Virus record (IMG/VR): IMGVR_UViG_3300033418_000001
Span: 32,001 to 96,000 of that record
Length of the DNA: 64,000 nucleotides
Direction: 5' to 3' (one strand)
Origin: a virus
Each line of letters starts with the position of its first letter. Within the stretch, counting starts at the first letter, position 1. Below, one piece after another: positions 2,032-63,960 of this stretch. A program made the translations under genes and the position numbers. The notes under the pieces are model-generated. The model ran no database searches. It worked only from the letters and a program-made list of their open reading frames with translations, and had not been told where the DNA came from.

Positions 2032-2047
2032 GTGCAGATGTCTGCAA
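2032..2047. repeat. 16-bp palindrome copy 1 (intergenic)
   Basis: GTGCAGATGTCTGCAA. Confidence 0.95.
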
Positions 2048-2052
2048 ACGCT

Positions 2053-2388
2053 TCAGGCTTGCACCCACTTGCCTTCGCGGATGAAGCCATGGTCCCCCGT
2101 CTCGCGGCACAGGATCGACGGGGAGAGCGTCAACGGCTCCCACGACTCCACCTGCCACCGTGCCCCGGCGAGTGCCCCCGGGATGGCCCGGGTCTCGGGC
2201 AGATCGAACCACATGGCCCCGATGGTGCGCCACTCGCCGTCGATCTGCTTCCACAGGGTAGCCCCCGCGCGCAGCACATCAGGAACTCCGGCATAGCGTT
2301 CCGCGTTCGAAGGGATGTCGCGGTCGGGCGACCATTGGAACCACCGCAGTTGGTAGCCGCTGCCCAGATCGAGGTCGAAGGTGTCCAT
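2053..2388 (-). CDS. DUF6527-like hypothetical protein
   Basis: C-terminal PLTLSPSILC..GDHGFIREGKW motif; probable start MDTFDL. Confidence 0.55.
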   Translation of the reverse strand: MDTFDLDLGSGYQLRWFQWSPDRDIPSNAERYAGVPDVLRAGATLWKQIDGEWRTIGAMWFDLPETRAIPGALAGARWQVESWEPLTLSPSILCRETGDHGFIREGKWVQA

Positions 2389-2390
2389 GC

Positions 2391-2819
2391 TCAAGACGTG
2401 AGGATGATGGCCGTGGCCCACTGCTGCCGGTAGACGACAGCGTTGCCGATGGTCCCGGCGGGGCGCTCGCTGACGAAGCGCCACTTGTGGAACGAGGGGG
2501 AGGTCTGCAACCTGATCTGCTTGCGCGTCTCATCGAGGAGACGGGCCGCTTCGTTCTTTTGGTCGAGTCCACCAATGGCGTCGTTGGCGATGATGACCAA
2601 CACCGTGCAGGTCAGGTCCGCAGCCATGCCCTGACGCGAAGGGTCGAGCGAGTTGGCCGCGATACCACCGTAGACCACGCCCGCCATCGGGAACTTGGCA
2701 CCTTTCAGGGCAGCAATTAAGTCCTGCTCCGAGAGAACGCTGACGGTTTTCTCCGCGAACTCGGTTACTCGCATCACGCGAGTCATCAGGTCTTCCCAAC
2801 AGGCCACGGCGGTCGTCAT
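2391..2819 (-). CDS. Putative tail terminator/completion protein
   Basis: 142 aa; position between virion morphogenesis gene and tail tube. Confidence 0.55.
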   Translation of the reverse strand: MTTAVACWEDLMTRVMRVTEFAEKTVSVLSEQDLIAALKGAKFPMAGVVYGGIAANSLDPSRQGMAADLTCTVLVIIANDAIGGLDQKNEAARLLDETRKQIRLQTSPSFHKWRFVSERPAGTIGNAVVYRQQWATAIILTS

Positions 2820-2954
2820 AGTTGTCGATGCTCCTCAGACTGTTGACGATGGTAGGCCATGTCGTCGTACTGTGGTAGGCGTCACGGTTGCCGTACTCGT
2901 TCCACGTCCCCGAGGTGTCAGTCCACCCATGCAGGTGGAAGGTCGCCATGCCCA

Positions 2955-3410
2955 TCAGGCCAACCCCAGTGCCTCAGCCACGCGCTGCATCACGCGGGCT
3001 TCGAACAGTTCGATGTCGCTCTCCACCACGCCCAAGAACTCGCGCACCGGCAGGAACTTGGTGCCGTACTGGTGGAACTTGCCGTACTCCACGCCCTTCT
3101 CGTTCTCAGCCCCGGCCCTGATGGTGCGCTCGCCCGCCGGGTTGTCGTCGGTGAGTTGGATCGAGCGCCACAGCGTGCCGGTGTCGAAGAGGGTGCCCGT
3201 ACCGCCACCGCGTCGCCGCTTGATCGCTGCCTCGGAGGGAGGCCAGTGCTTGCCCTCGGGGTTCTTCTCCTCAAGGTAGCGCGCCCGGGTGTTGTTGAGG
3301 ATGATGCTCGCCGCCATGTCCAACACTTCTTCCACATCGAGAGCTTGATGCACGGTGTCCAACACCTGTTGGAGTTGGCCCGCGTCAATCTCGATGACAA
3401 GCGAAGTCAT
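2955..3410 (-). CDS. Phage virion morphogenesis / tail completion protein (Mu gpG-like)
   Basis: PEGKHWPPS...TLFDTGTLWRSI...YGKFHQYGT...PVREFLG motifs; start MTSLVIE. Confidence 0.8.
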   Translation of the reverse strand: MTSLVIEIDAGQLQQVLDTVHQALDVEEVLDMAASIILNNTRARYLEEKNPEGKHWPPSEAAIKRRRGGGTGTLFDTGTLWRSIQLTDDNPAGERTIRAGAENEKGVEYGKFHQYGTKFLPVREFLGVVESDIELFEARVMQRVAEALGLA

Positions 3411-4027
3411 GCGGCGTAGGGGGCGTAGCTGAAGGGCTGATTGCGAAGGTAGGGTTCCACGATCTTGGCGGTGACGTGCCACGCCATCTTCTGCGCTTCA
3501 TTGGCCGCGTTCATCACCGCCGAGTCCTGCGCGCCCGAGGGCTGCATCATCAGGTGCGGCAGGTAGGACAGCACGGCTTCCTGCAACCAGATCGGCGCCT
3601 TGTGCGTGCTGTCGAAGCCTGCGGTGTAGCCGACGTTGAGCCATGCCCCGAGGTGCGTCGATTCGATGTGCACGATGCCGCGCGTGGTGTCCACGAAGTA
3701 GTCGTCCGCCGACACCACCTCCGGCTCCGTTTGCAGCAGCGACCGGGAGATGGCGTTCTTGGTGACCACCAAGGGCACGTCGAGATGCACGAAGGCTTGG
3801 TTCAGGCGCAGCTTGAGCAGGCCATCCATGGGCTTCGGGAACAGCCCCTCCTGCGTGTAGAACAGGTCGGTGCGTGGCGTGGGTTCGAAGACCGTGTGCA
3901 GCATCCCCTGCAACACCACGTGCGCCGCGTTCAGCACCGAATCTACGGAGGCACGGACCTCAGCGATGTCTTGCAACGCCATGCGGGTAATCACGGCGTC
4001 GGTGTCGATGATCAGCTTGAGAGCCAT
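3407..4027 (-). CDS. Head-tail connector/adaptor protein
   Basis: DYFVDTTRGIV...VGYTAGF...PIWLQEAVL resembles gp6-like adaptors; position after capsid. Confidence 0.65.
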   Translation of the reverse strand: MALKLIIDTDAVITRMALQDIAEVRASVDSVLNAAHVVLQGMLHTVFEPTPRTDLFYTQEGLFPKPMDGLLKLRLNQAFVHLDVPLVVTKNAISRSLLQTEPEVVSADDYFVDTTRGIVHIESTHLGAWLNVGYTAGFDSTHKAPIWLQEAVLSYLPHLMMQPSGAQDSAVMNAANEAQKMAWHVTAKIVEPYLRNQPFSYAPYAA

Positions 4028-4041
4028 GCCCCCTCCTCAGT

Positions 4042-4057
4042 GTGCAGATGTCTGCAC
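4042..4057. repeat. 16-bp palindrome copy 2 (intergenic)
   Basis: GTGCAGATGTCTGCAC. Confidence 0.95.
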
Positions 4058-7215: not shown

Positions 7216-7231
7216 GTGCAGACATCTGCAA
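7216..7231. repeat. 16-bp palindrome copy 3 (intergenic)
   Basis: GTGCAGACATCTGCAA. Confidence 0.95.
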
Positions 7232-8709: not shown

Positions 8710-10547
8710 TGGTTCGCCTCCATGATCAGCCGCAGGTAGCGGTCGCGCCGCTTCTTGTCCTTCATGTGCATGATTGCCCCGATGACGCCCTCGCCCTTGG
8801 TCCTACCGAAGGAAGAGGCGGTCATCACGTCCATCATTACCCGCCGGGGCACCACCAAGCCCATGTACTGATGATTCCATGGGTCGGGCACCGTGTGGTC
8901 CACCATGCGCGAACCCTCACGGTTCCATGCGTGGGCAAGGGGGATGCCATGCTCCGTGACGATGCCCTCCACGTAGTCTACGCGAGGGCTGTCGGGCTTC
9001 AGCATCGACTCCACGATCACGTCCACGCTGTTGTTGTAGCAGCGGTGGGGCGTGCGGATGTCGTCGCTGCCGTTCACCTCCATGGGCTTGCCGTAGCGGT
9101 GCACGAAGTCGAGACGCGGGGCATTGCCGTCCACCGCCTCGATGATCTTGCCGAGCAGGCTCTTCACCGGCTCGTCTTCGCTCACGTTGCCAAGCCGCGA
9201 CACGATGGCCAACGTCGAGATGGCGTTCATGTGCGGCGACATGCCCTCGATGGGCGAACGGTTCTTGTCCTTCAGGTAGGCGAACTCATCGGGGGCGTCC
9301 GCCACAGCGTTTTCACTGGTGGTGAACCTGCCCCTCTCGTCGTGGTTGGGGTTGAACTTCTTCACCTTCACGCGCTTCACCGCCTTGCCCGTGTGCGTGC
9401 GCCACTCGGACAGTGCGCTCACCTGATAGCCCATGGCCTTCTTGCTGCGCGGAGCGAACTCCATCAACTGAATCTCTTCGCGCTTGGTCTGCCCCAGTGC
9501 AATGAGGTTGGAACTGAAGAACAGCGGGTCGAGTTGCTTGGTCACCGCTTCGCGCGCCGCGAGCCACTTCTTCAGGAACTCCTCACGCCGACGCTGTGCT
9601 TCCTCGGGCGTGGCATCCCGCTCCACCACCGCGAGGTTGCGATCCTTCAGCGTGTGCGTGACCTTCATGCCCTCAAGGTTCTTGCGCTCGCTCGCACTGG
9701 TGTTGTTGGTGCGCTTCCACTCCAACATCTCGTTGGTGAAGCCTGCGCCATACAACTCGATGACCTTGCTGTGCAGAGCTTCGTAAGCGCCGAAGGGCAC
9801 ATCCGTTCCCGGGTAGTTGCCCGCTCCGCTGCCGTAGTACAGCGCCATCTTCTCAAGGAAGCCGTCCTTGCGTGCCGTCTCCACCATCTGCTCTGTGGTG
9901 ATGTCCCCCGCCATGTAGTCGCGGGCGAGCAGCATCGCACTGTGGATGTCCTCGGCCACCTTCTTGTCCACGGCGAAGCTGATGGTGTCCGATGTGCCGC
10001 CGCCCAAGCCCACCCCAGAGGTCTGACTTAGCTCGTCGCGGGTCTTGAGGCCATGCTTGGCCACGTCGGTGGCCGCAGTGGTCACGTGGTACAGCTTGGG
10101 CGGCAACGGCTCATACGGACTCGATCCGTTGTTGCCATAGAAGCCGCGCGCCTTGGCCGTCTTCTCGTCAATGTCGCCCAAGGAGAGGGCTTCCGACGTT
10201 TGCCGCGTCCACTCGTTGTTGAGGGCACGCTTCTGCCGCATGGCGGCATCCACCCGATCCTGCAACTCAGGAGGTGCCTTGTCGTGGCTCAGGTACTCAT
10301 CGAGCAGGGCACGGTACTCGGCAGCGTTCTCCCCGGCGAAATCGGCCCGGGTCTGATCGTAGGCATGGGCGAACTGCCCGCCCTTGGGCGAGCCTGCGGG
10401 TTCGTGGTTGGGGTTGAACTTGAGGATTGCAGACATCTGCACACCCTCTTCGTCGTCCACGAAGGTCGCAGGCGTGTCCTGCCACGGCTGCGTCTTGTCG
10501 AAGGAGACCGAAGCGAAGAAGTCGTCCATCAGCGTGTCAGTCGTCAT
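8706..10547 (-). CDS. Two-module tagged polyprotein (ART-like domain + transglutaminase/papain-like domain)
   Basis: Tags ILKFNPNHEPAGSPKGGQFA and VKKFNPNHDERGRFT; LYHVT..GLK...ISFA...SEWR; RCYNNS...YVEG...AHAWN...VDHT; start MTTDTL. Confidence 0.6.
   Translation of the reverse strand: MTTDTLMDDFFASVSFDKTQPWQDTPATFVDDEEGVQMSAILKFNPNHEPAGSPKGGQFAHAYDQTRADFAGENAAEYRALLDEYLSHDKAPPELQDRVDAAMRQKRALNNEWTRQTSEALSLGDIDEKTAKARGFYGNNGSSPYEPLPPKLYHVTTAATDVAKHGLKTRDELSQTSGVGLGGGTSDTISFAVDKKVAEDIHSAMLLARDYMAGDITTEQMVETARKDGFLEKMALYYGSGAGNYPGTDVPFGAYEALHSKVIELYGAGFTNEMLEWKRTNNTSASERKNLEGMKVTHTLKDRNLAVVERDATPEEAQRRREEFLKKWLAAREAVTKQLDPLFFSSNLIALGQTKREEIQLMEFAPRSKKAMGYQVSALSEWRTHTGKAVKRVKVKKFNPNHDERGRFTTSENAVADAPDEFAYLKDKNRSPIEGMSPHMNAISTLAIVSRLGNVSEDEPVKSLLGKIIEAVDGNAPRLDFVHRYGKPMEVNGSDDIRTPHRCYNNSVDVIVESMLKPDSPRVDYVEGIVTEHGIPLAHAWNREGSRMVDHTVPDPWNHQYMGLVVPRRVMMDVMTASSFGRTKGEGVIGAIMHMKDKKRRDRYLRLIMEANQ
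10427..10442. repeat. 16-bp palindrome copy 4 (coding, VQMSA)
   Basis: TTGCAGACATCTGCAC. Confidence 0.95.
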
Positions 10548-13500
10548 GCTTCTTCCTCTTGGTCTTCTCCTTGCCCGCCCACCGCCCCCACACCGTGGGG
10601 TCGATGTAGCTGCCGAGAGCCACCATGCGCGTGTTGCCCAAGTGCTTGGACACCACGTCGCCCACGTGCACCCGGGCCTTGCGGTACTCGGCCTCGGTGG
10701 CAGGCTCGCCAATCTCCTTCAGCACCTTGAGCGCAGTGTACGTGCCATGCCACGTGCGAAAGTCCTTGGCCGAGAACGGTTGGCCCGTCACATCCTTCAG
10801 GTACTTGTTGACGCGCCCCTCGTTGGTGGCGAACAGCCGCTCGTCCTTGGTGGTGTGTCGCTTGCGGTTGCGAATGTACTGCGCGAGCAGCATGTCGTTC
10901 AACTCATGGCTCTGCATCACCGCGTGCTTGCCGGGGAAGTTGAAGGTGAGCTTAGTGCCCGACACCACCACGTGCCGATCCAACAGCGTGGACGCGCCGT
11001 AGGCTTTGCCCTTCTTCGTTTCGAACTCGTTCTCGCCGCCAACGCGGAAGCCCGTCTTCGACATCAGGCGCACTACTGCCGCCGTGTCCCGCTCCGCTTG
11101 CGTCTTCCCACTCAGCATGTCGTCGTGCGAGCGCCGCCGCAGCAACGGCATGGCCCCGTTGAAGTCCTTCAGGCGCGAGAACTTCTCCGCTGCGTTGCTG
11201 CCCATGGCCTCGGCGCTGTAGCGGTACTGCAACTTGCCATTGCGCGCAGTCCACGTGGCCTGCAACGGCTCCGTGGGGTCGGGGTTGAGGTGCACGTTGA
11301 TCGAGGCAGGCGGGATGGCCATGCCCTTGAGGCGTGCAGCTACCGGCTCCGGCACCTCGCTGTGATCGCCACCATAGCGCCACACCTTGTCATCGAAGTA
11401 CATGCCGGTGCCCTGCCGCCATTGAGCGAACTGGCCCCCCTTCGGCGTGCCCGCAGGCTCGCGTGGGTGCTTGCTCTCATCGAACTTGAAGGCACGGTAC
11501 GCATCGCCAATCTCGATGAAGTATTGCAGCGGCATGGTGAAGTCGCACTTCGTGACCTTGCCACGGTTCTCAGCAATGATGCGTCGAGCCACCCGTTCGA
11601 TTTCATAGGCTTGATCCGTTCCCTCTGCTCTGCGTCCGAGCGATTCCAGATGATCGAAGACGGCACGTTCGAACTGCTCCATGCCGACAAGCTGCATCGC
11701 CCGGTTCATCGCTTCCACGGTCGGCAGTTCGTCGTGCCCCTCTTGCTGCTTCGCGTTCTGGGCGGTCGTGAACCTGCCACGTGCGTCATGGAACGGGTTG
11801 AACTTGAGGATGGTCGAGAATTGATGCTTCTGGGTTCGCGCTTGGTCGGAAGTCGTTGCAGATGTCTGCAATCGAATGCGATCCAGATGCTCCTTGAACG
11901 CCCGCCGGATGGCCTCGGGGCTGAACCCGTGCCGGGGGAAGGTGGTCATCGGCACCGATGCCACGCGCTCTGACGTGTGGCTGTCGTCCCGCGCCGGGAA
12001 CGAGTACCACACCGAGGGGAAGTCCTTCTCGTCACCTGCACTGCGCCCCACCACGGGGGAGCCATAGGTGCTGCGGTCGCGGATGGTCTCGTACTCGCCG
12101 AAGTGCTTGCCCAAGGTCACCTTGTACAGCGACACGTGACTGCCGAGCGTGTAGCCGCGCTCCGGCTGTTCGAAGTCGTTCATGTCGTCATAGAAGCCCA
12201 CCACGCCATCGGCATTGCCTGCGTTCACGCCTTGGAGGCTGTTGTGCTTGCCGCTGTCGATGCGATAGACGAGGAACGATTCGCCGGGTTGGGGCACGTT
12301 CCATGAGCCGTCCGCGTTCTGCCGCTCCTCTTTGAAGCCGGGGCCGATGCCCGCCTTGTCCACGATGGGTGCAGGCGGGGGGAAGGCATCGCTGTACGCA
12401 GGGTGGTCCTTGGGCAGGTACCACCGGGGCACCTTCTCCCACTGCGGGTTGCGGTTGCGGTCGCCTTCCTTGGGCGGGCCTTGGAACTCGGCGTACTTGG
12501 GACTGGACCCCTTCATGTACATGAGGTCGTGGCGCGTGGGGTGCGACCACGGGTTGGCCGCGTTGGTGGTCCACCGGCCCCACTCGTCGCGCGGCTGCAT
12601 CTCGTCGTACTTCTTGGCCGTGGGGAAGCGCGTCAGGTACGACGGGTCGCCATAGCCCGGGGACTGCTTGAAGCCGTGCCGCTTGTACCACGCCACCAAC
12701 TGGGCCTTGGTGAGTCCCTTGCCCTTGGCCCCGGCGTCGGGGATGGGCTTGGCGTTCAAGTCGATGGCCACGCCATGCTCGTCCGCCATCTGGGTAATCT
12801 CGCGCATCAACTCGGAGGCTTCGCCCTTGCCCTTGCTGCCGTAGCTGATGATCGAGGACAGGTGCACCTGATCCATGCCCTGCCATGGCGACATGTCGAT
12901 GCCCACGTTGCGACGCAGGCGTTGCCGATCATCGAAGGGGTGCGCTTGCGAGCCTTCGATCCACTCCTGCATGAAGGCAGTGGCCTTCTCGGTGAAGCGC
13001 CCGGTCTTCGGGTCGTGGTTGGGGTTCATCTTGGTGATGGCCGTCACCAAGCCCTCCCCGTACTGGAACATGCGCTTGAAGCCATGGCGACGCTTGCGCT
13101 TCGGGCCTTGGGCAGCAGGCAGGCGTCCGCCACGGTCGAGGTCGGCCTGTGCGAGGTCTTCCTTCTTGGTGCGCGGTTGGCCGCGAGCGAAGGTGTCGTA
13201 CTCGTTGAAGTAGTGGTCGAAGATGCCCTTGATGGACTTGATCGAGGTGCGACCGCTCTCGCGGATTTCCTTCGGCTTGTCGTGGCTGTAGGTGGCCGCG
13301 AAGGCTTCGGCGAACCACTCCCGGTCGTTGACCGCCGCGTAGGTGGAGATAGCGGTCTCGCTGTCCACCTCCTGCCGCAGGCGTTGGGTGAGCAGCTTGC
13401 CATTGCGCTTGGTGCGCTTGCCGAGGTAGTCGAGTTCGCCCTGTTCGAACGCCTGCACGTGGTGGCCGAACTCATGCACGAAGATGCTGCCCACGGTGTC

Positions 13501-14106: not shown

Positions 14107-14284
14107 AGGTCTTCCCACCGGGTTGGGGTTCGTAACGGACCCCATTATCGCCCGCAGCGGGGAACCTGTGATCGAACGAGTTCATCAGGATGGTGAGGGG
14201 GATGCCGTGAGGGAACGCCGCGCAGTTGAAGGTACCCCTTTGCAGATGTCTGCAACCCATGCACATGGGCACGCCACCGATCAT
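14066..14284 (-). CDS. Small Cys/His-rich protein
   Basis: CMGCRH...CAAFPHGIP..ILMNSFDHRFP..GDNGVRYEP, a pattern I associate with phage head-morphogenesis loci. Confidence 0.6.
   Translation of the reverse strand: MIGGVPMCMGCRHLQRGTFNCAAFPHGIPLTILMNSFDHRFPAAGDNGVRYEPQPGGKTYGLAVRPQVQPES
14240..14255. repeat. 16-bp palindrome copy 6 (coding, CRHLQ)
   Basis: TTGCAGATGTCTGCAA. Confidence 0.95.
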
Positions 14285-16453: not shown

Positions 16454-16891
16454 TTACTTCAGGGGCTTACCGGCTCGATTCCACCGGTCGTTCAGGTCGT
16501 TCAATTCCTGCTTGTACTTGGCCCCGAGCGCGCGATCCGTCTGCGTCTTCGCCTTCTCGGGGGTCATGTCGATGCGGAACAACTGGTCTTCCAAGGTGCG
16601 CTTGCGATTCTGGTCCGCTTGGTACTCGATCTGAAGCAGCAACGCCTTCTGGGCGTCGTCCTGCTTCTTGGCCTGCGCCACCACCTCACCCTTCACCTGC
16701 TCCACCGCGTCGTTCTTCGCGTACTTGCGGTCGAAGGCTTCGACGGCGCCGAACGCCGAGGTCACCAAGCCCACCGCGATCCCGAAGAACCACACCAACC
16801 CCTTGACGTAGGGGTTGTCCCAGAGCCGTGCAGATGTCTGCAAATCGTCACCCATGGCGGTCATGGTAGCGTGGCCCTTGCCACCGATCAA
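16454..16891 (-). CDS. Membrane protein with coiled coil (holin/antiholin-like?)
   Basis: One hydrophobic helix GLVWFFGIAVGLVTSAFGAV then coiled coil; start uncertain. Confidence 0.45.
   Translation of the reverse strand: MIGGKGHATMTAMGDDLQTSARLWDNPYVKGLVWFFGIAVGLVTSAFGAVEAFDRKYAKNDAVEQVKGEVVAQAKKQDDAQKALLLQIEYQADQNRKRTLEDQLFRIDMTPEKAKTQTDRALGAKYKQELNDLNDRWNRAGKPLK
16828..16843. repeat. 16-bp palindrome copy 7 (coding, LQTSA)
   Basis: GTGCAGATGTCTGCAA. Confidence 0.95.
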
Positions 16892-20701: not shown

Positions 20702-20717
20702 GTGCAGACATCTGCAA
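20702..20717. repeat. 16-bp palindrome copy 8 (intergenic)
   Basis: GTGCAGACATCTGCAA. Confidence 0.95.
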
Positions 20718-23732: not shown

Positions 23733-24406
23733 GAGCAGAGTCCCTTCACCTTGTTGAACTTCGGCAGGGGCGTATCGAACTCGATGCCGCACCCGAGGAG
23801 GATGGCGCCCAACACCTTGTTGGCCGGGGCTTCGACGGTGCAGGGGTAGTGCCCCGACATGTACTTGAAATCGGGCTTGGCCTTGAGGGAGAGACCCTGA
23901 TCCGTGAGCTTGGCCACGGTGAGGGCGTCATCGAGAGCGGCCCCTTCCGCGCGCACCGAGAGTTGGACGCCTTCGACGCGCACCGCGATCTTGAGCTTGT
24001 CGGTCAGCGCCACGGCCACGTAGACCGAACCGGACGACGTGCCCTTGACCCTCTGGTACATGGCGCAGGCGTCGCGCAGGGGGATCACGTCGTTGGACGG
24101 TTCCGGTGCAGACATCTGCACGGGGTCCGAGGGCTTGACGTTGGCCGGGATGCCGCCCGCCTTCTTCTCGTTCTCGATTTCGGTCAGGACGAACAGCATG
24201 AACGAGTTCAGTTCCGCCTGCACCTGAGCCGGGGACGCGAGCCAGTTCATGACGAGCTTGTAGCCCTTGCTGCCGTGCCAGATGGTGAAGAAGTCGTCGC
24301 CCTCCTGCGTGGCGAGACCGAGAGCCTTACAGGTGGCGATACCGTGGGGGTCGCACCCGTAGTTGGTCAGGACGCTGAGGGACTTTTTCTTGAGGATCAG
24401 GGCCAT
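23729..24406 (-). CDS. Hypothetical protein
   Basis: Start MALILKK after CAAAGGAGTG RBS and sigma70 promoter. Confidence 0.7.
   Translation of the reverse strand: MALILKKKSLSVLTNYGCDPHGIATCKALGLATQEGDDFFTIWHGSKGYKLVMNWLASPAQVQAELNSFMLFVLTEIENEKKAGGIPANVKPSDPVQMSAPEPSNDVIPLRDACAMYQRVKGTSSGSVYVAVALTDKLKIAVRVEGVQLSVRAEGAALDDALTVAKLTDQGLSLKAKPDFKYMSGHYPCTVEAPANKVLGAILLGCGIEFDTPLPKFNKVKGLCS
24106..24121. repeat. 16-bp palindrome copy 9 (coding linker, VQMSA)
   Basis: GTGCAGACATCTGCAC. Confidence 0.95.
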
Positions 24407-27513: not shown

Positions 27514-27514
27514 G

Positions 27515-27970
27515 TCATTTCACCTGTAGCAGTCGTTGTGCTGAAGCGGTGAGAACCCACGTGGACCCTCCCGGCAAACCCTTGCGGAACTCGGTGACCA
27601 CCACCAGTCCCTTGTAGCGCAGCACCGTGAGGTGCGAGGACACCTCGTTGGTATCGTACCCGGGCACCGGCTTCTTGTTGTGATTCACCTGTGCCGTGAT
27701 GTCGGCGGTACTCGCTGATCGTAACGCCGCGAGCGCCACCAAGCACTCCCACAATTTGGTGCCCTGCCGTGGCAGGGTCACGTCTTCCGGCTTCTCGCTG
27801 TGGTCGATGATCACGCTGCCAAGCTTGGTCTGTACCAATTTGTGCAGGCCACACAGGCATCGCAGGAACACGTCCTGATGCCCATATTCGAACCACGCCG
27901 ATTCCGAGCCGCACTTGGGACAAATCGCGCGCACCAAGACCCCTCCTTGGGGGTCCATGGTACCGCACAT
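27515..27970 (-). CDS. Zn-ribbon + winged-helix DNA-binding protein
   Basis: CPKC...CLCG; STADIT...EVSSHLTVLRYKGLV...GGSTW. Confidence 0.6.
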   Translation of the reverse strand: MCGTMDPQGGVLVRAICPKCGSESAWFEYGHQDVFLRCLCGLHKLVQTKLGSVIIDHSEKPEDVTLPRQGTKLWECLVALAALRSASTADITAQVNHNKKPVPGYDTNEVSSHLTVLRYKGLVVVTEFRKGLPGGSTWVLTASAQRLLQVK

Positions 27971-27986
27971 TTGCAGATGTCTGCAC
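27971..27986. repeat. 16-bp palindrome copy 10 (gene junction)
   Basis: TTGCAGATGTCTGCAC. Confidence 0.95.
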
Positions 27987-30039: not shown

Positions 30040-30232
30040 GCATCTTGCGGCCCTTGTAGTACGAGGCGTACTGCGCCTTGTCCTCGGGCGTGCCGCCGAT
30101 GGTCTCGGGCGTCATGCCGTCGTTGTACAGGGCTTCCAAGGTCCAGTCCGACAGGGGCGCGTTGGCCGGGAACATGGCGTTGTCGCCAAGTCGGTCACGG
30201 GCCTCTGCGTAGGTCATCTTCGGGTCTGCCAT
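30014..30232 (-). CDS. Small hypothetical protein
   Basis: MADPKMTY..., GGAGG RBS, upstream TTGAGC-N17-TATGAT. Confidence 0.6.
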   Translation of the reverse strand: MADPKMTYAEARDRLGDNAMFPANAPLSDWTLEALYNDGMTPETIGGTPEDKAQYASYYKGRKMLDSLYPKG

Positions 30233-35173: not shown

Positions 35174-35518
35174 TCACTCTTCCCATGGAGGCTTCGCCCC
35201 CGAGTCAACAACGGGTGCGACCGGGGTTGCAGATGTCTGCACAACCTTCGACCGCTTGTCCTTCTTGATCGGCTTGATCCTGACCATCAGACCGTAGGCC
35301 AACAGAGGCGACGACGGCCCGATGGAATCCGTGCGAAAGCGCAGGATCACCTCGGCCTTGCCCTCGATCACCATCATGTTGAGGGCATCGTAGCGACCCT
35401 TGCCCACACTCACCTTGCCGCCGCGAGGGCCGGTGCCGGTCACCCACATGGCCGAGAGCATCCGCTTGGTGTGCTTCGACTCGGCAATCAACTCCAACTC
35501 GGAGTGGGTGTACTTCAC
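35174..35518 (-). CDS. Hypothetical protein
   Basis: GTG start coupled to upstream stop. Confidence 0.5.
   Translation of the reverse strand: MKYTHSELELIAESKHTKRMLSAMWVTGTGPRGGKVSVGKGRYDALNMMVIEGKAEVILRFRTDSIGPSSPLLAYGLMVRIKPIKKDKRSKVVQTSATPVAPVVDSGAKPPWEE
35227..35242. repeat. 16-bp palindrome copy 12 (coding C-terminal tail, VQTSA)
   Basis: TTGCAGATGTCTGCAC. Confidence 0.95.
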
Positions 35519-36748: not shown

Positions 36749-36764
36749 GTGCAGACATCTGCAC
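36749..36764. repeat. 16-bp palindrome copy 13 (intergenic)
   Basis: GTGCAGACATCTGCAC. Confidence 0.95.
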
Positions 36765-39290: not shown

Positions 39291-39960
39291 CGCTCGCTTC
39301 GGCAGTGAACTTGCCCTCGATGATGGAGAACGCCCGGTTCAAGGCAGCGTCCACGCGGTTCGACTTGTTCATGGCCTCCTGCAAACGCTGCTGCGTGCGC
39401 GAGGCCAAGCCCTCGATCTGAAGCTTCTGCGGCACCTTGCGGAGCAGGCCGAGGTCCATCTGAAGGTCGGCGAGCTTGGTGTACAGGTTGCCGAGCAGTT
39501 CCACCTCGTAGCGCGTCTTGCGATCCAAGATGCCGGGGTGCAGGGTGTTCTCGGCGTGGATGGCCTTGGTCACCCGAGTCTGCTGCAACTCCACAAGCTT
39601 GGTCAGGTTCTCCAACACGTCCACCTTATCGGCGAACTCGGACAGGCGCGGCGCGGTGGGGTCCGCCATCAGGACCAGTTTGCCGATGAGGCAGTCCTTC
39701 TTGTAGCGCCCGAGCGTCTTGGCGATGGCGTTCATGGTGCTGCCGGTGAGCAGCTTCCAATCCAACTTGATCGTTCTGGCGATGGCTTCGCACGTCTCTC
39801 CGTTGAGGAGGCGGCTGTCCACCATGGCCATGCGCTCAGGGCCGAGCGTCTTCGTCAGGAGTGTGTGCGCGGGCTTCTTGGCCGTCCCACGGGTATGGGG
39901 AGGCTTCGTCTTCGCCTTTGCAGATGTCTGCACGGTCTTCGTGTGTACGCGCACCACCAT
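39268..39960 (-). CDS. Putative terminase small subunit
   Basis: Immediately upstream of terL; N-terminal HTH-like region plus helical oligomerisation region. Confidence 0.55.
   Translation of the reverse strand: MVVRVHTKTVQTSAKAKTKPPHTRGTAKKPAHTLLTKTLGPERMAMVDSRLLNGETCEAIARTIKLDWKLLTGSTMNAIAKTLGRYKKDCLIGKLVLMADPTAPRLSEFADKVDVLENLTKLVELQQTRVTKAIHAENTLHPGILDRKTRYEVELLGNLYTKLADLQMDLGLLRKVPQKLQIEGLASRTQQRLQEAMNKSNRVDAALNRAFSIIEGKFTAEASDEPSRKH
39918..39933. repeat. 16-bp palindrome copy 14 (coding N-terminal tail, VQTSA)
   Basis: TTGCAGATGTCTGCAC. Confidence 0.95.
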
Positions 39961-46671: not shown

Positions 46672-47096
46672 GGTTGCGTCTCCTTTGCAGATGTCTGCAA
46701 CACCGCGCCCTTGCGGTGAACGAGGTCAAGAAGCTCAGGGGTGGGTTCCTTCGTGCCCTCGGGCAACACCGCCATCAGGTAGTTGGCATCCACGGTGGTG
46801 TCCACGCGAGAGTCGAACTCGTACCCGGTCTGTGAAGTCAGCATCAGCCGCCGCGACTCCTCATCGAAGCCACGCACCCGATACCATACCCTAGCCTTGA
46901 TCAGGTGCAAGAGGAACTTGACCCTGCCCTGCTCGTCGGAGAAGTCCATCTTCCGCAACAGCACCGCACCATCGAACTCCCACCCTCTCGGATGTGGAGA
47001 AGCCCCCGGGGGGCCACCCTTCTCGGGCGGGGCGGGGGCTTCTGCCGGGGGCGTGACGGGCGGCTCGATCTTCTTACGGATGATCCGCACCGGCAT
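46668..47096 (-). CDS. Hypothetical protein
   Basis: GAGGAG RBS; coupled to neighbours. Confidence 0.55.
   Translation of the reverse strand: MPVRIIRKKIEPPVTPPAEAPAPPEKGGPPGASPHPRGWEFDGAVLLRKMDFSDEQGRVKFLLHLIKARVWYRVRGFDEESRRLMLTSQTGYEFDSRVDTTVDANYLMAVLPEGTKEPTPELLDLVHRKGAVLQTSAKETQP
46685..46700. repeat. 16-bp palindrome copy 15 (coding C-terminal tail, LQTSA)
   Basis: TTGCAGATGTCTGCAA. Confidence 0.95.
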
Positions 47097-47099: not shown

Positions 47100-47960
47100 T
47101 CACTCCTCGGGGACGGTCACATCGAGCGTCACCTTGGGGAACGCCTGTTCCAGAGCCTTCAGGGTGTCGTCCAACTTCAGGTCCACCATCGCTTCGACCA
47201 TGGCCGCGATCTTCTCGGCCTTGGTGAGCTTCTTCGGCTTCGCCGCCGGTTCCGCCGGGGCATCCGCGCCGCCGATGGTCGGGATTTCGACCGAACCGCC
47301 GAGGTACCCGGTGGCGAGGTTGGTGATGGCCACCGAATCGTACTCGGTCTTGGTCTCGGCCTTGACCTTGGCGAGGGCTTCCTTGACGACTTCCTTCTGG
47401 TCCGACTTCAGCTTGAAGGTCATCGTGGTGAGCGTGCTGTCGCCCTCGGTCTCGGAGGCGTCCTTGCCGCCGGTCGCGGTCTTCTTCTTGACCGCATCGA
47501 GCAGTTGCACGTAGGTGAGCTTCTTCGCCTTGGCGACCCACGATTCGACGTTCTTCGCGGTGATGACCTTGGCGATGGCCGCGATCTTGGTCCAACCGAG
47601 ACCCTGCACCGCGCTGTACGGGATGCTCTTCTCGGTCAGGTTGCGGTAGATGTCGATCAGGTACATCGCCTTGCGGTAGTGCAGGGCGAACTTCTCGTTG
47701 CACAAGTCCTTGAAGGACTTGGCGTCGCCCAACCACTCCTCGGCGCCTTCCTCGCACTTGGCCTGAATCGTGGACAGTGCGCCCCCGAGCTTGAAGCTGT
47801 TCTGCTCGATGTCGTTGGACAGTTCTTCGACCAACGTGAACGCCTTCGCGGCGGTCAGGTTTTCGACCTCCTGCGCGGTAGCGAAGATCAGGTCGGCACT
47901 CGCCGCCTTCGCCTTCGTTCCCGCAGCGACCTTGCTTGCCACACCCTTTTTCGCTGCCAT
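47100..47960 (-). CDS. Lys/Ala-rich putative DNA-binding protein
   Basis: SFKDLCNEKFALHYRKAMYLI helical motif, GWTK; strong RBS and promoter. Confidence 0.6.
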   Translation of the reverse strand: MAAKKGVASKVAAGTKAKAASADLIFATAQEVENLTAAKAFTLVEELSNDIEQNSFKLGGALSTIQAKCEEGAEEWLGDAKSFKDLCNEKFALHYRKAMYLIDIYRNLTEKSIPYSAVQGLGWTKIAAIAKVITAKNVESWVAKAKKLTYVQLLDAVKKKTATGGKDASETEGDSTLTTMTFKLKSDQKEVVKEALAKVKAETKTEYDSVAITNLATGYLGGSVEIPTIGGADAPAEPAAKPKKLTKAEKIAAMVEAMVDLKLDDTLKALEQAFPKVTLDVTVPEE

Positions 47961-48003
47961 GTTCCACACTCCTTTGGTTGGACCCCTTACCGGGATCAAC
48001 TTC

Positions 48004-48031
48004 ATCTTACCACATTGACAACGGAGGTCAA
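48004..48031 (-). promoter_or_regulatory. sigma70-type promoter
   Basis: TTGACC-N16-TAAGAT. Confidence 0.55.
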
Positions 48032-49643: not shown

Positions 49644-49846
49644 CAGTCCTCCGCGATGATGCGGCTCGCGCACACCACATCACCGTCCACGTTCTTGGTG
49701 GTGAGGGAGAAGAAGTCGTTCCACAGGTAGTGGCCCTCGTTCGAAATGTGGTACGCGATGGTGAGGCGGCGTTTGCAGATGTCTGCAAATGGGCACGCCT
49801 CACCGTCCCTGCACCGAGCGTAGTCGATGGGCAGGCGATGACTCAT
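49643..49846 (-). CDS. Small Cys-containing protein
   Basis: MSHRLPIDYARC..EACP...CKR; coupled start/stop. Confidence 0.5.
   Translation of the reverse strand: MSHRLPIDYARCRDGEACPFADICKRRLTIAYHISNEGHYLWNDFFSLTTKNVDGDVVCASRIIAED
49773..49788. repeat. 16-bp palindrome copy 16 (coding, ADICK)
   Basis: TTGCAGATGTCTGCAA. Confidence 0.95.
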
Positions 49847-51912: not shown

Positions 51913-52255
51913 GCTCCTCGGTCAGCGACGCCATGCGGGTGTCCACCCACGCCAAGCACTCCTCGTAGCAGGCGTCCACGCTCTCAGGGTCGCACGGCAT
52001 GTGGATGGAGACGCCCACCTTCACGCTGTTGAAGTCGCCGAGGTTGATGGTGCGCTGCGCCTGCACGCCGACGTTGGCGTAGACCTTGGGCACCTCGCGC
52101 AGGGGTTGCACGGTGGTCTTCACCACCTCGCTCCCTGTCTTGCTGTGCGCGACCGAAGTCTCCACGATCCCCGCCACCTGCGTCTTCTCGGAGATGACCT
52201 GCTTGGCCGTCTTCTTGTTGGGCACCGGCTTGGCCTTCTTGATGTTGATCGCCAT
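51881..52255 (-). CDS. Hypothetical phage protein
   Basis: TINLGDFNSVKVGV motif. Confidence 0.6.
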   Translation of the reverse strand: MAINIKKAKPVPNKKTAKQVISEKTQVAGIVETSVAHSKTGSEVVKTTVQPLREVPKVYANVGVQAQRTINLGDFNSVKVGVSIHMPCDPESVDACYEECLAWVDTRMASLTEEHDGGSQSQDN

Positions 52256-56257: not shown

Positions 56258-56646
56258 TGCTCGTCTTTTGCAGATGTCTGCACGGACCCGCCGATGGTCT
56301 TCACCGCGTCCAACTCGGTCTTGACGGGCGGGAACTCCACCTTCTCCACCCACAGCCACAACAGGTAGGCGCACGTCGCCGTCTTGTCCTCATGGCGAGG
56401 CTCCCACGACCGCAGGATCGACGCCACGTGCTTGTACGCCGCCTCGGCGCTGACGCCCTCCTTGGTGTAGAACAGCGTGCCCTGCGGCAGTCCTTCGAAG
56501 AACCACCGGTCCACGACCTTGCACCATGGGTCGGTGCCGTCGCAGAACCTTTCGGGGATGTCATCCGGCGGCAGCAGGGACCGCAACTCTTCCCCGTAGG
56601 CACCGAAGGCGCGAACCGCATCGGTGGTGACTCTTGGCATGAACAT
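56254..56646 (-). CDS. Hypothetical phage protein
   Basis: WFFEGL...SWEPRHEDK..TCAYL; CAAAGGAGTG RBS. Confidence 0.65.
   Translation of the reverse strand: MFMPRVTTDAVRAFGAYGEELRSLLPPDDIPERFCDGTDPWCKVVDRWFFEGLPQGTLFYTKEGVSAEAAYKHVASILRSWEPRHEDKTATCAYLLWLWVEKVEFPPVKTELDAVKTIGGSVQTSAKDEQ
56268..56283. repeat. 16-bp palindrome copy 17 (coding C-terminal tail, VQTSA)
   Basis: TTGCAGATGTCTGCAC. Confidence 0.95.
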
Positions 56647-61532: not shown

Positions 61533-61548
61533 TTGCAGATGTCTGCAC
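61533..61548. repeat. 16-bp palindrome copy 18 (coding C-terminus, ADICK)
   Basis: TTGCAGATGTCTGCAC. Confidence 0.95.
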
Positions 61549-62132: not shown

Positions 62133-62374
62133 GTCAGTCTTCCTCCATGAACTCGGGGCTGCACTCGGGGGCCGGATTGAACGGGCCGATCAGTTCGCAC
62201 CCGCTCAGGTAGGGCCAGTCCTTGGCCATGGCATCGACCTCGGCCTTGCTGAAGAGCTTGCCGCACCGCGCGAAGGGCGACCACAGCGCGGGGTAGTCTG
62301 GGTTGACCAAGTATTGGTTGAACATGCCGCCGAGGCGGGGGTCTTTGATCAGGAACTTTTCCATGGTGCCCTCC

Positions 62375-62770
62375 TCAGTCCATCCGCGACATCGAGTAGG
62401 CGCGGAGGCCCGCGTCGCTCAGGACATCCGCGAACGCCGCTGCGTACTTCTCCTTGCGCTCCAAGGACTGATTGAAGTCCATCACCGAGATGATGTAGCC
62501 GCCCTCGTAGCTGTCGGCGCGACCGATCTTGTTGGCCTTGCACCAGTTCACGAAGTCGCCGCGAGCGGGGCGAATCTTGATCCACGCGAACCCGCACACC
62601 CCGTCCATGACCGGGGCGTACCGCTTGACCACCGGGGACGAGTCATTGAGGGGGTCGGCGTGCTGACAGACAACCATCGGGACCGGCTTCGCCGCACTGC
62701 CCGCCGCGAGACCGGCGTCACGCGCCTTGCGGTAGAGGTCGGCCATCGCTGCGTAGTTGGGTTTTCCCAT
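62375..62770 (-). CDS. Hypothetical phage protein
   Basis: GVCGFAWI...QSLERKEKYA.AFA.VL...SRMD. Confidence 0.65.
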   Translation of the reverse strand: MGKPNYAAMADLYRKARDAGLAAGSAAKPVPMVVCQHADPLNDSSPVVKRYAPVMDGVCGFAWIKIRPARGDFVNWCKANKIGRADSYEGGYIISVMDFNQSLERKEKYAAAFADVLSDAGLRAYSMSRMD

Positions 62771-62807
62771 GGTGCACTCCTTTGCGCGGGGGGAAGGGGA
62801 CAACCTC

Positions 62808-62835
62808 ATAGTACCACAGTGGGGGAGAATGTCAA
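62808..62835 (-). promoter_or_regulatory. sigma70-type promoter
   Basis: TTGACA-N16-TACTAT; near-duplicate of 63735..63762. Confidence 0.75.
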
Positions 62836-63212
62836 CTCTTTTTCTTGGGGCAGGCGCCGTCACTGAAGCGGTGGTCCTTCCAGTACGCCCCGCAGACGCA
62901 CTTCACCATGCTCTGCAACTTGGGGCCATCGGGCTTGTCGTCCCACTGGGGGAACCACACCCCGTCGAACTTGCTGCCCTCGATGAAGCGGTCAGCAGGG
63001 TCCATCAGTAGACCCCCTCGGCGTTGGAACCGTCCTCGTTGAGGCAGCGGACGATGGCCGCGTCGTTGAACCGGCGGCAGACGATGTAGAGCGCCGCCTT
63101 GTACTCGGCCCGCGCTTCCCTCACCCCGTAGCACTTCCGCTCCTTCTTGGAGCCATCGGGGAACTCCACCACGACGTTGAAGACCTTCAGCTTGCTCGCC
63201 ATGTCACCCTCC

Positions 63213-63698
63213 TCAGTCGCACATCCCGTAACCGTCGAGCCACGACACCATGCCGTCGCCGACTGCGATGTTGCTCGCGCCACGCGGCCAACGCAGGGCG
63301 CCGTAGGAAGAGCCGCCCGGGTACTTCGCGCGCACCGCCTTCTTGATCATGTCCGCGTCCCAGTCCGCCGGGAAGGCCGACAGGGGAGCGATGCAGTCCC
63401 AGTGCCCGCCGTAGGCTTCCATCACCTCGGGGCCGTTCCCAACGAGGGACCAGTCCACCAGATCGAGGGCGGGCTTGGCCGCAGGGGCGGGGGAGGGGGC
63501 GGGGTCGTCCATCACGGCCACGTTCCTGCCGTAGGCCCAGACCACGTTGCCCGCGTCGTCCTTGATGCCCACGCGGAGGTAGGACTTCTTGCCGTACCCG
63601 TCCGCCTTGGGGTAGTACCACTTCTCCCAGAAGCAGAGGCCGGAGAAGCCCACGTCGGACTTCCCGCGAACCACGGCGACCTTCGATCCCTTCAGCAT
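63213..63698 (-). CDS. Hypothetical protein
   Basis: Start MLKGSK after CAAAGGAGTG. Confidence 0.6.
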   Translation of the reverse strand: MLKGSKVAVVRGKSDVGFSGLCFWEKWYYPKADGYGKKSYLRVGIKDDAGNVVWAYGRNVAVMDDPAPSPAPAAKPALDLVDWSLVGNGPEVMEAYGGHWDCIAPLSAFPADWDADMIKKAVRAKYPGGSSYGALRWPRGASNIAVGDGMVSWLDGYGMCD

Positions 63699-63734
63699 TT
63701 CGCACTCCTTTGCGGTGGTGGGGGGGACAACCCC

Positions 63735-63762
63735 ATAGTACCACAACGGGGGAGAATGTCAA
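63735..63762 (-). promoter_or_regulatory. sigma70-type promoter
   Basis: TTGACA-N16-TACTAT. Confidence 0.75.
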
Positions 63763-63960
63763 CTACTTTGCAGATGTCTGCACGGGCATAACACGCAAGA
63801 AGCGGAGGTGGGCGTAGTCGTACCGGTCCACCGTGCCGTCATCCCACTTCACGTGGACACTGCTCTTGTCCACGGAGGAGACTTCCCCTCTGCGGTGGGG
63901 CCACCATGAGTCGTACACTCGCACCCCCTTCGTGAGGGGAATCAACCTTGGCCTCACCAC
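63763..63960 (-). CDS. Small SH3-like hypothetical protein
   Basis: GVRVYD....RGEV....VHVKWDDG. Confidence 0.5.
   Translation of the reverse strand: MVRPRLIPLTKGVRVYDSWWPHRRGEVSSVDKSSVHVKWDDGTVDRYDYAHLRFLRVMPVQTSAK
63768..63783. repeat. 16-bp palindrome copy 19 (coding C-terminus, VQTSAK)
   Basis: TTGCAGATGTCTGCAC. Confidence 0.95.

What the first reader, a model, noticed from the sequence alone, without database searches (positions are those of the whole stretch)
2032..63783. 19 invariant copies of a 16-bp palindrome tiling the whole phage segment
Seen: the 14-bp core TGCAGA(TG/CA)TCTGCA starts at 2033, 4043, 7217, 10428, 11857, 14241, 16829, 20703, 24107, 27972, 32603, 35228, 36750, 39919, 46686, 49774, 56269, 61534 and 63769. 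All are exact and all are flanked 5' by G/T and 3' by A/C (KTGCAGA-NN-TCTGCAM); 14 have one orientation of the central dinucleotide and 5 the other. A given 14-mer is expected about 0.0005 times in 64 kb under uniform composition. Gaps are 1.4-6.8 kb and copies never cluster. About 7 are intergenic. About 12 lie in genes, in different frames (QTSA, QMSA, ADICK, CRHLQ) and mostly in termini or linkers, so selection acts on the DNA. Inference: binding sites for a dimeric protein that coats or organises the whole genome (parS/matS/Noc-like segregation, compaction, ejection or protection), or dispersed stoperator-like sites. Candidate binders: the ParB-like module of the tagged polyprotein (30214..32544), the 47100..47960 protein, the wHTH at 27515..27970, or a host protein.
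Basis: partly seen in the sequence, partly recalled or inferred. Interest (0 to 1): 0.87.

Follow-up and report, generated by a model that had tools for sequence, protein, structure and literature searches.

The report
Genome-wide operator sites of a phage
A 108-kb phage carries 28 identical, evenly spaced 14-bp palindromes that are most likely docking sites for its own ParB/KorB-like DNA-binding protein; related phages of five or more host genera have the same arrangement, and I found no paper that describes it.

Summary
The window holds 19 exact copies of KTGCAGA-YR-TCTGCAM and the 108,443-bp phage genome holds 28. No copy has 1 or 2 mismatches, and shuffles expect 0. Spacing is far more even than random (CV 0.47 against 0.95, P=5e-5).

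This is a trait of the lineage, not a quirk of one genome. All 10 related complete genomes tested (Stenotrophomonas DLP5, Rhodobacter RcZahn and RcTiptonus, Rhizobium TM16, Y1_11 and L338C, Vibrio SIO-2 and KarBoss, Pseudomonas SM1) and most of about 100 metagenomic loci carry 20-57 copies of their own variant. The usual form is TGCAAT-YR-ATTGCA.

One conserved protein of unknown family is the best candidate binder (window 47100-47960, minus strand):
- Its model is an all-helical HTH domain whose best structural matches include Noc, ParB, Spo0J and KorB DNA-binding domains.
- It has no CTPase domain.
- In many relatives the palindrome, in that genome's own variant, sits just upstream of the -35 box of this gene's promoter.

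I read the sites as operators of a KorB-like or stoperator-like genome-wide regulator or coating protein. Binding and function are untested. I found no description of this in the literature I could search.

The parts
2033..2046 (.). site 1, TG centre; intergenic, 6 nt after a stop codon
   Evidence: exact match; context
4043..4056 (.). site 2, TG centre; fills a 32-nt gap between two head-module genes (3 nt after the stop, 15 nt before the next start)
7217..7230 (.). site 3, CA centre; 3 nt after the stop of gene 7234-8709
10428..10441 (.). site 4, CA centre; intergenic, 95 nt after the stop of the 1202-aa TopIB-fusion gene
11857..11870 (.). site 5, TG centre; inside gene 10537-14145, read as LQTSA
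14241..14254 (.). site 6, TG centre; intergenic, 26 nt after the stop of the prohead protease gene
16829..16842 (.). site 7, TG centre; inside gene 16454-16891 (codon 17, LQTSA)
20703..20716 (.). site 8, CA centre; 2 nt after the DNA polymerase I stop, 42 nt before the portal start
24107..24120 (.). site 9, CA centre; inside gene 23729-24442 (VQMSA)
27972..27985 (.). site 10, TG centre; 3 nt after the stop of the PPDK-like gene and 1 nt before the next start codon
32603..32616 (.). site 11, TG centre; in a doubtful 67-aa ORF, otherwise intergenic
35228..35241 (.). site 12, TG centre; inside gene 35174-35593 (VQTSA)
36750..36763 (.). site 13, CA centre; intergenic (16 nt after a stop, 20 nt before a start)
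39919..39932 (.). site 14, TG centre; codon 10 of the gene just upstream of and overlapping the large terminase gene (possible small terminase), VQTSA
46686..46699 (.). site 15, TG centre; near the C-terminus of the gene just downstream of the candidate binder gene (LQTSA). The closest relative, L357, has TGCAGA-TA-TCTGCA at a similar distance from its homologue (about 415 against 450 nt)
49774..49787 (.). site 16, TG centre; intergenic, 100 nt upstream of the Cas4-like exonuclease gene
56269..56282 (.). site 17, TG centre; in the first 31 codons of the longest primase ORF, in the odd frame, so possibly upstream of the true start
61534..61547 (.). site 18, TG centre; intergenic, 4 nt before a start codon
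63769..63782 (.). site 19, TG centre; on the coding (-) strand it lies 6 nt upstream of a TTGACA -35 box (promoter-proximal site)
63735..63762 (-). sigma-70-like promoter (TTGACA, 17 nt, TACTAT) directly downstream of site 19. It shares its flank with a second such pair outside the window, at G000 104511
47100..47960 (-). candidate binder gene: 286-aa all-helical protein (phrog_17202, no Pfam family). It has an HTH at residues 83-110 with invariant R96, K97 and Y100, a GWTK motif at 122-125, Lys/Ala-rich N-terminal residues and a helical C-terminal part
48004..48031 (-). promoter of the binder gene (TTGACC, 16 nt, TAAGAT), followed by the AAAGGAGTG ribosome-binding site. In this genome it has no palindrome upstream, unlike many relatives

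Best explanation
The 28 palindromes are high-affinity binding sites (operators) for a homodimer of a phage-encoded helix-turn-helix protein, the 286-aa product of window 47100-47960 (minus strand). Its DNA-binding domain resembles those of ParB, Noc and KorB, but it has no ParB N-terminal CTPase domain. Each monomer would read one half-site, K-TGCAGA-Y. The central CA/TG step is probably read indirectly, through DNA bending.

Most likely mode of action, by analogy with KorB of plasmid RK2 and with phage stoperators: a few sites lie just upstream of -35 boxes and control those promoters directly. In many relatives that includes the protein's own promoter, which would give autoregulation. The majority of sites lie far from promoters, about every 4 kb in a genome transcribed in one direction, and hold tightly bound dimers that block or insulate transcription or nucleate further coating.

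What is shown and what is inferred:
- Shown: the sites, their invariance, their even spacing, their evolution together with the lineage, the fold resemblance, and the promoter-adjacent operator in relatives.
- Inferred: that this protein binds the sites, that it binds as a dimer, and what binding does.
For: 1. The sites are real, invariant and over-dispersed.
2. Dyad symmetry is kept while the arms change between phages: TGCAGA here and in the closest relative L357; TGCAAT in most; also TGCAAC, CGCAAT, GGCAAT, TCCAAT, GGAAAT, TGAACT, TGACAT and TGCAAA. TGCA-N6-TGCA is enriched only at spacing 6, with 348 copies against 21.7 at other spacings in 66 loci.
3. The flanks vary per half-site and do not co-vary between the two halves. 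Genic copies use the frame that avoids Cys codons. Selection therefore acts on the DNA, not on a peptide or a hairpin.
4. The protein is present in all genomes that have the motif, including the distant RcTiptonus and SM1. Samisti12, which has a related capsid protein but no homologue, has no such palindrome.
5. The model has mean pLDDT 80. The Foldseek top hits are Noc and ParB DNA-binding domains on DNA (prob 0.84-0.99, E 0.2-0.5). VIA-align gives Spo0J Z 7.4, ParB-parS Z 7.3 and KorB-operator Z 6.1.
6. The arrangement palindrome, 5-12 nt, TTGACA(AAC), -10 box precedes this gene in at least 17 loci, and in variant genomes the palindrome there is the variant form (L305, L334). In DLP5 and RcTiptonus it is the only promoter-adjacent site of 36 and 54.
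7. The rare changes at the otherwise invariant R96, K97, A98 and Y100 occur in genomes whose outer half-site bases have changed (L344, L335/L337).
8. Promoter-proximal sites exist: 2 of 28 here and 14 of 57 in L338C.
Against: - There is no binding experiment.
- The fold scores are moderate for a helical protein: the best VIA match is the unrelated Raf1 (Z 8.8), and the tool warns that Z below about 13 can be a common helical arrangement.
- There is no sequence-level link to ParB or KorB.
- Any core gene of the lineage shares the same presence/absence pattern. phrog_25619 is nearly as widespread, although its strand-plus-helix model is not a typical dimeric DNA reader.
- Residue-to-base covariation is not clean. 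K127 is changed in genomes with altered inner bases but also in L362 and L418, which keep TGCAAT. This phage's recognition helix is identical to that of relatives with other inner bases.
- In this genome the gene's own promoter has no palindrome.
- A silencing role presumes a state in which the genome is kept quiet. This phage has no integrase, ParA or CI-type repressor, and its lifestyle is unknown.
Confidence: 0.5

Rival explanations
1. Same binder, different purpose. The protein nucleates at the sites and coats, bridges or compacts the whole phage chromosome, as a sequence-anchored nucleoid protein would (MatP-matS, Noc-NBS or histone-H1-like). This would serve replication or packaging compartments, protection from nucleases or host silencers, or tethering and segregation of an episomal prophage. 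Transcription control would be secondary.
For: Spacing is even in all eight genomes tested. Most sites are far from promoters. Distant homologues carry long Lys/Ala/Glu linkers and AKP-rich tails resembling histone H1, and this protein has a Lys/Ala-rich N-terminus. DLP5 lysogenises as a phagemid (PMC5834331, PMC7326821). There is no ParA or integrase here, so a partner-free tethering mechanism would be useful.
Against: This phage's protein has only short basic segments. No oligomerisation or bridging domain has been shown. Operators placed next to promoters argue for at least some regulatory role.
Confidence: 0.25
2. The sites are targets of an enzyme rather than of a passive binder. Candidates are site-specific nicking (as in T5 and some Pseudomonas phages), a site-specific modification, or Chi-like signals for the neighbouring exonuclease, RecA-like and helicase recombination module.
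For: The candidate gene lies in the replication and recombination module next to a Cas4-like exonuclease and a RecA-like gene. Even, orientation-free coverage would suit a circularly permuted genome whose ends can fall anywhere (RcZahn is reported as permuted, PMC8601537). DLP3 DNA is modified (PMC7326821).
Against: The resistance of DLP3 DNA to 15 enzymes points to global, not site-specific, modification. No nuclease or methylase is conserved across the lineage apart from the exonuclease. Sites at fixed positions before -35 boxes are hard to explain by nicking. Nothing here can detect nicks.
Confidence: 0.1
3. A host protein, for example a nucleoid-associated or LacI-type factor, recognises the sites. 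The consensus TGCAAT-YR-ATTGCA resembles the generic LacI-family operator TGNAANCGNTTNCA (from memory).
For: A similar core (TGCAA-N4-TTGCA) is found in phages of Vibrio, Pseudomonas, Stenotrophomonas, Rhizobium and Rhodobacter.
Against: Variant arms occur among close relatives and appear in the operator of the phage gene itself.
Confidence: 0.05
4. The element works in RNA, as a small hairpin that marks processing, pausing or termination points in the long one-directional transcripts.
For: The transcript can form a 5-bp stem with a tetraloop, -5.9 kcal/mol. Many copies sit just after stop codons.
Against: The flanks do not co-vary as pairs. There is no U-tract. About half the copies lie inside genes. 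The sequence itself, not only the pairing, is conserved across genera (TGCA). Both orientations occur although all genes lie on one strand.
Confidence: 0.04

Closest known systems
KorB and its OB operators on IncP plasmid RK2 (DNA-binding domain with operator: PDB 1r71; 8qa8)
   Same: Palindromic sites of 13-16 bp are dispersed round a replicon. Some lie directly upstream of -35 boxes and others far from any promoter (RK2 site classes are from memory). The DNA-binding fold is related (Z 6.1 and 5.6), and the binder's own gene appears to be autoregulated.
   Different: KorB has a ParB N-terminal CTPase domain and partners (IncC, KorA). This protein has none, and the genome holds no ParB_N or ParA domain. 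There are 28 evenly spaced sites per 108 kb rather than 12, about half of them in coding sequence, and there is no detectable sequence similarity.
ParB-parS and Noc-NBS (PDB 6s6h, 4umk, 1vz0, 6y93, 7ol9)
   Same: These are the best structural matches of the model. Their sites are 14-16-bp palindromes bound by dimers, and Noc sites are scattered over a whole chromosome.
   Different: There is no CTP-binding domain and so no evidence for clamp sliding. There is no ParA and no membrane-targeting helix has been shown. The sites are not clustered near an origin.
Stoperators of Cluster A mycobacteriophages (L5 gp71)
   Same: Twenty to thirty-five near-identical sites are spread through a phage genome, often at gene junctions. 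Specificity differs between related phages. They are proposed to stop transcription genome-wide (from memory, and as discussed in PMC4351075).
   Different: Stoperators are asymmetric 13-mers oriented with transcription and bound by a monomeric immunity repressor. The sites here are dyad-symmetric, occur in both orientations, and the candidate binder is ParB-DBD-like.
The 17-bp repeat TGTTCGG-NNN-CCGAACA of Cluster O mycobacteriophages (PMC4351075)
   Same: It has more than 30 invariant dyad-symmetric copies throughout a phage genome with a variable centre. Many are at gene junctions and most are not at promoters. The binder and function are unknown, and a dimeric protein was predicted.
   Different: The phage lineage and the sequence are unrelated, the spacer is 3 bp, and no binder has been proposed. 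Here a candidate binder, an operator at its own promoter, and evolution of the specificity across genera are added.
Dispersed centromere or operator sites of plasmid prophages (N15 SopB/sopC-like repeats; P1 C1 operators) and phiC31 conserved inverted repeats (all from memory)
   Same: Phage genomes carry multiple dispersed copies of a site for one phage-encoded DNA-binding protein. Relatives of this phage (DLP5) persist as episomes.
   Different: Those systems have 4-18 sites placed at regulatory regions and known partner proteins. Here there are 20-57 sites with statistically even spacing, many of them inside genes.

Membership tests
ParB/KorB/Noc superfamily | ParB-type helix-turn-helix DNA-binding domain (fold) | tested here: inconclusive
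   The Foldseek top four hits are Noc and ParB DNA-binding domains on DNA (prob 0.84-0.99, but E 0.2-0.5). VIA-align gives Spo0J Z 7.4, ParB Z 7.3, KorB Z 6.1 and 5.6, SopB 4.2 and P1 ParB 4.1. The unrelated Raf1 scores Z 8.8, and the tool warns about helical proteins.
ParB/KorB/Noc superfamily | Sequence membership (Pfam ParB/KorB HTH families, or similarity to solved ParB proteins) | tested here: not met
   None of the 36 homologues hits a ParB or KorB family at E<=1. phmmer and a profile search against PDB sequences find nothing relevant.
ParB/KorB/Noc superfamily | N-terminal ParB/Srx CTPase domain | tested here: not met
   PF02195 gives no match at E<=0.1 anywhere in the genome. The model has only about 35 disordered or helical residues before the HTH domain.
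ParABS partition system | Partner ParA-type ATPase | tested here: not met
   PF13614 gives no match in the genome. Other ParA models were not tried.
ParB/KorB/Noc superfamily | Palindromic 13-16-bp cognate site bound by a dimer | tested here: met
   The site is a 14-bp dyad (16 bp with the K/M flanks), and the arms change together across phages. Binding itself is not testable with these tools.
Stoperator system (Cluster A mycobacteriophages) | Asymmetric site with one orientation relative to transcription | tested here: not met
   The sites are dyad-symmetric. The centre orientation is 18 against 10 although nearly all genes are on one strand.
Stoperator system (Cluster A mycobacteriophages) | Dozens of near-identical sites through the genome, enriched at gene junctions | tested here: met
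   There are 28 sites. By one search's cruder gene calls, 24-54% are not fully inside ORFs in the six genomes scored (29% in this one), against 10-13% non-coding DNA.
KorB-type global regulon | Sites both directly upstream of -35 boxes and far from promoters; autoregulation of the binder gene | tested here: met
   Promoter-proximal sites are 2 of 28 here and 14 of 57 in L338C. The palindrome precedes the binder gene's promoter in DLP5, RcTiptonus, L338C and at least 17 metagenomic loci, but not in this genome. Regulation itself is not testable here.
Intrinsic terminator or RNA hairpin element | Pairing kept by covariation, followed by a U-tract | tested here: not met
   The flanks are complementary in 12 of 28 sites against 13.4 expected. 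There is no T-run. The hairpin is only -5.9 kcal/mol.
pac site of headful packaging | Site at which packaging series start | not testable with these tools
   Indirect evidence only: RcF-cluster phages (RcTiptonus) are reported to have P1-type headful ends (PMC8601537), which implies (from memory) one defined pac start, yet RcTiptonus carries 54 copies.

The most novel reading that the evidence does not exclude
A broad clade of roughly 80-130-kb siphophages of Proteobacteria encodes a ParB-derived DNA reader that has no CTPase domain and often carries histone-H1-like tails. It docks on 20-57 evenly spaced sites and coats or insulates the whole viral chromosome. Site and protein specificities drift together, so each phage marks only its own DNA. 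This would be a virus-encoded, sequence-anchored chromatin or self-marking system rather than an ordinary repressor.
Probability: 0.25. Interest if true: 0.8.

Novelty: new variant of a known kind. Interest (0 to 1): 0.68.

Why it matters
- Dispersed invariant palindromes have been noted in a few phage groups, and in Cluster O mycobacteriophages they remain unexplained. Here the same kind of feature appears across several genera with cultured members (DLP5, DLP3, Summit, SM1, SIO-2, VHS1, RcZahn, RcTiptonus, Rhizobium phages), with a named candidate binder and a clear prediction. The question therefore becomes testable in laboratory phages.
- If the protein is a ParB-type reader working without CTP, it would show how the ParB DNA-binding module has been reused for genome-wide control in viruses.
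- The natural series of changed specificities (TGCAAT, TGCAGA, GGCAAT, TCCAAT and others) would be a ready-made data set on how a protein and its many sites change together.
- On the practical side, the motif is a simple marker for recognising and sorting this phage clade in metagenomes.

Tried and rejected
- **Same motif elsewhere.** Scanning IMG/VR and 185,579 species genomes for this phage's exact word gave only scattered single copies, so there was no multi-copy relative and no host clue.
- **Literature.** Searches for eleven motif spellings found only primers and unrelated text. The DLP3 and RcZahn papers do not mention the repeat.
- **ParB module in 30214-32544.** Pfam shows a Zeta-toxin-like kinase instead.
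- **wHTH at 27515-27970, the MerR-like protein at 52255-52689 and the 133-aa 'repressor' homologue at 26844-27245.** They are too narrowly distributed to explain a lineage-wide trait.
- **phrog_25619 (51881-52273).** It is widely conserved, but its model is four strands plus a helix with only weak uS3-like matches.
- **The TopIB fusion protein as site-specific enzyme.** It is present only in this genome.
- **Orientation of the centre.** It shows no significant runs and no link to gene direction (hand-computed runs test data, z about -1.6).
- **Residue K127 as reader of base 5.** The link was promising in the first data set but was weakened by L362, L398 and L418 in the second.

Full report
**The observation**

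The pattern TGCAGANNTCTGCA occurs at exactly the 19 stated positions, with 14 TG and 5 CA centres, and dinucleotide-preserving shuffles give none. Allowing two mismatches adds no copy, although chance alone would give about three. The window is bases 32001-96000 of a 108,443-bp virus record rated complete, which holds 28 copies. Across the genome the 12 arm positions show 0 mismatches 28 times, 1 or 2 mismatches never, and 3 mismatches 27 times, which is the chance level. Every copy is flanked by G/T and A/C. These flanks are complementary in only 12 of 28 sites against 13.4 expected, so they belong to each half-site (K-TGCAGA-Y) and not to a longer stem. Gaps run from 1.4 to 6.8 kb. The spacing CV is 0.47 against 0.95 for random placement (P=5e-5), and no simulation of 20,000 reached the observed minimum gap.

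**Gene context**

Nearly all genes lie on the minus strand, yet both centre orientations occur (18 and 10). With GC3-filtered of the 28 sites are intergenic, seven of them 2-6 nt after a stop codon. Eleven of the 13 genic sites share the frame reading [VL]Q[MT]SA, which is the only frame without Cys codons. Six genomes scored with cruder calls show the same frame preference and a 2.5- to 4.5-fold excess outside ORFs. So the DNA word is what selection keeps, and it sits where it does the least harm to proteins.

**A trait of the lineage**

The nearest named phages by capsid protein are Stenotrophomonas DLP5, DLP3 and Summit, Rhodobacter RcZahn, Rhizobium RHph_TM16, RHph_Y1_11 and L338C, and the Vibrio SIO-2 group.
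- DLP5 has 26 exact copies of TGCAAT-YR-ATTGCA.
- In eight genomes TGCA-N6-TGCA is enriched 10- to 30-fold, and only at spacing 6.
- L338C has 47 exact copies of TGCAAC-NN-GTTGCA and KarBoss has TGCAATTAA[C/G]TGCA.
- Site positions are shared among the three Stenotrophomonas phages but not between genera.
- Spacing is more even than random in all eight genomes (CV 0.47-0.74).

**Which protein travels with the sites**

The genes shared by all eight genomes are capsid, protease, portal, PolA, TerL, primase, DnaB, an SF2 helicase, a RecA-like protein, a Cas4-like exonuclease, an AAA+ ATPase and two unknowns. One unknown, window 47100-47960 (phrog_17202), has about 470 homologues.

Using it as bait I fetched 66 IMG/VR loci and 80 metagenome loci. 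The 66 loci hold 348 TGCA-N6-TGCA words against 21.7 at other spacings. Most carry TGCAAT-(CA or TA)-ATTGCA. Others carry CGCAAT, GGCAAT, TCCAAT, GGAAAT, TGAACT, TGACAT, TGCACT or TGCAAC arms. The closest relative (74% identity, 4.8 kb) has two copies of TGCAGA-TA-TCTGCA.

Profile search finds distant homologues in Rhodobacter RcTiptonus and Pseudomonas SM1 and BHU-15 but not in Streptomyces Samisti12. RcTiptonus has 54 TGCAAT-CG-ATTGCA-type sites, SM1 has 33 TGCAAA-CG-CTTGCA-type sites, and Samisti12 has no such palindrome.

**What the protein looks like**

It matches no Pfam family and no PDB sequence. The AlphaFold model (pLDDT 80) is all-helical, with a helix-turn-helix at residues 83-110 (invariant R96, K97, Y100) followed by a GWTK motif.
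- The four best Foldseek hits are Noc and ParB DNA-binding domains on their sites.
- An independent all-against-representatives alignment gives Spo0J Z 7.4, ParB-parS Z 7.3 and KorB-operator Z 6.1, behind Raf1 at Z 8.8. These scores are moderate for a helical protein.
- There is no ParB N-terminal domain in the protein or anywhere in the genome, and no ParA, integrase or CI-type HTH.
- Distant homologues add a small N-terminal domain, Lys/Ala/Glu-rich linkers and AKP-rich tails like histone H1. This protein starts with a Lys/Ala-rich stretch.

**Links between this protein and the sites**

- In at least 17 loci the gene is preceded by palindrome, 5-12 nt, TTGACA(AAC), -10 box, ribosome-binding site. 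In variant genomes (L305, L334) the palindrome at that position is the variant form.
- Under a strict promoter test, the only promoter-adjacent site in DLP5 (1 of 36) and in RcTiptonus (1 of 54) is the one before this gene. L338C has 14 of 57, one of them before this gene.
- The rare substitutions at R96, K97, A98 and Y100 occur in genomes whose outer bases have changed (L344, L335/L337). A second apparent coupling, K127 with base 5, did not hold fully in new data.
- In this genome the gene has a good promoter but no palindrome. Two other sites lie 6 nt upstream of TTGACATTC promoters.

**Interpretation**

The sites are best read as operators of a dimeric ParB/KorB-type HTH protein that works without CTP. 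The mix of a few promoter-proximal sites and many distal ones recalls KorB on RK2. The genome-wide, junction-biased spread recalls stoperators and the unexplained Cluster O repeat (PMC4351075). Even spacing in a genome transcribed in one direction fits roadblocks or insulation, but it fits site-nucleated coating or tethering of an episome equally well. DLP5 is reported as a phagemid lysogen and DLP3 DNA as modified. The RNA-hairpin, pac-site, host-factor and enzyme-target readings are less well supported, for the reasons given under the rival explanations. None of this has been tested by experiment.

**Earlier notes of this scan**

Two first-stage notes on overlapping windows recorded the same motif. 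They agree with this report and add nothing further.

Noticed in passing
window 10537-14145 (-): A 1202-aa protein in the head-morphogenesis module has a C-terminal type IB topoisomerase catalytic domain (Pfam PF01028, 3.5e-26, residues 982-1175) and a weak bacterial TopIB N-domain match. tblastn finds no counterpart in DLP5, RcZahn, the Rhizobium phages or L338C, KarBoss and SIO-2. It may be a virion-carried topoisomerase.
   Followed up: partly
window 30214-32544 (-): A 776-aa protein has a Zeta-toxin-like P-loop kinase domain (PF06414, 4.4e-14), not a ParB module. PHROGs gives a weak 'minor head protein' match.
   Followed up: partly
window 24455-29977 (-): A conserved block holds a ThyX-like gene, a tyrosine-phosphatase-like gene and a PPDK-like gene (PPDK_N 3.5e-47). 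Since DLP3 DNA is reported to resist 15 restriction enzymes, this block could be a DNA-modification module.
   Followed up: no
whole genome, e.g. window 47967-47975: The word CAAAGGAGTG occurs 21 times (CAATGGAGTG 15 times in DLP5). It looks like an extended Shine-Dalgarno word placed before start codons.
   Followed up: partly
window 62835, 63762 and G000 96712, 104504, 105062 (- strand): Five copies of TTGACATTC suggest a small class of sigma-70-like promoters, and two of them have the palindrome 6 nt upstream. L338C has 22 copies of TTGACAAAGG-type promoters, and many relatives have TTGACAAAC.
   Followed up: partly
G000 1-200 and 108244-108443: Both record ends lie in a repetitive coding sequence with near-identical stretches. 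The assembly probably broke inside a repeat of a circular or permuted genome.
   Followed up: no
L336 (IMG/VR 3300025572_000001, 20.7 kb): There are 29 TGCAATTAATTGCA sites in 20.7 kb (14 per 10 kb), three to five times the usual density.
   Followed up: no
L338C genome (L275-L280): Besides 48 TGCA-N6-TGCA words there are 15 TGCA-N5-TGCA words, so a one-base-shorter spacer variant coexists with the main form.
   Followed up: no
window 48146-48756 (-): My GC3-filtered ORF list missed a gene here, between the exonuclease gene and the candidate binder gene. By position it matches the RuvC gene of DLP5.
   Followed up: no
window 42271-42840 (-): This is an HNH endonuclease gene (PF01844, 1.7e-5), and it is not part of the lineage core.
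   Followed up: no
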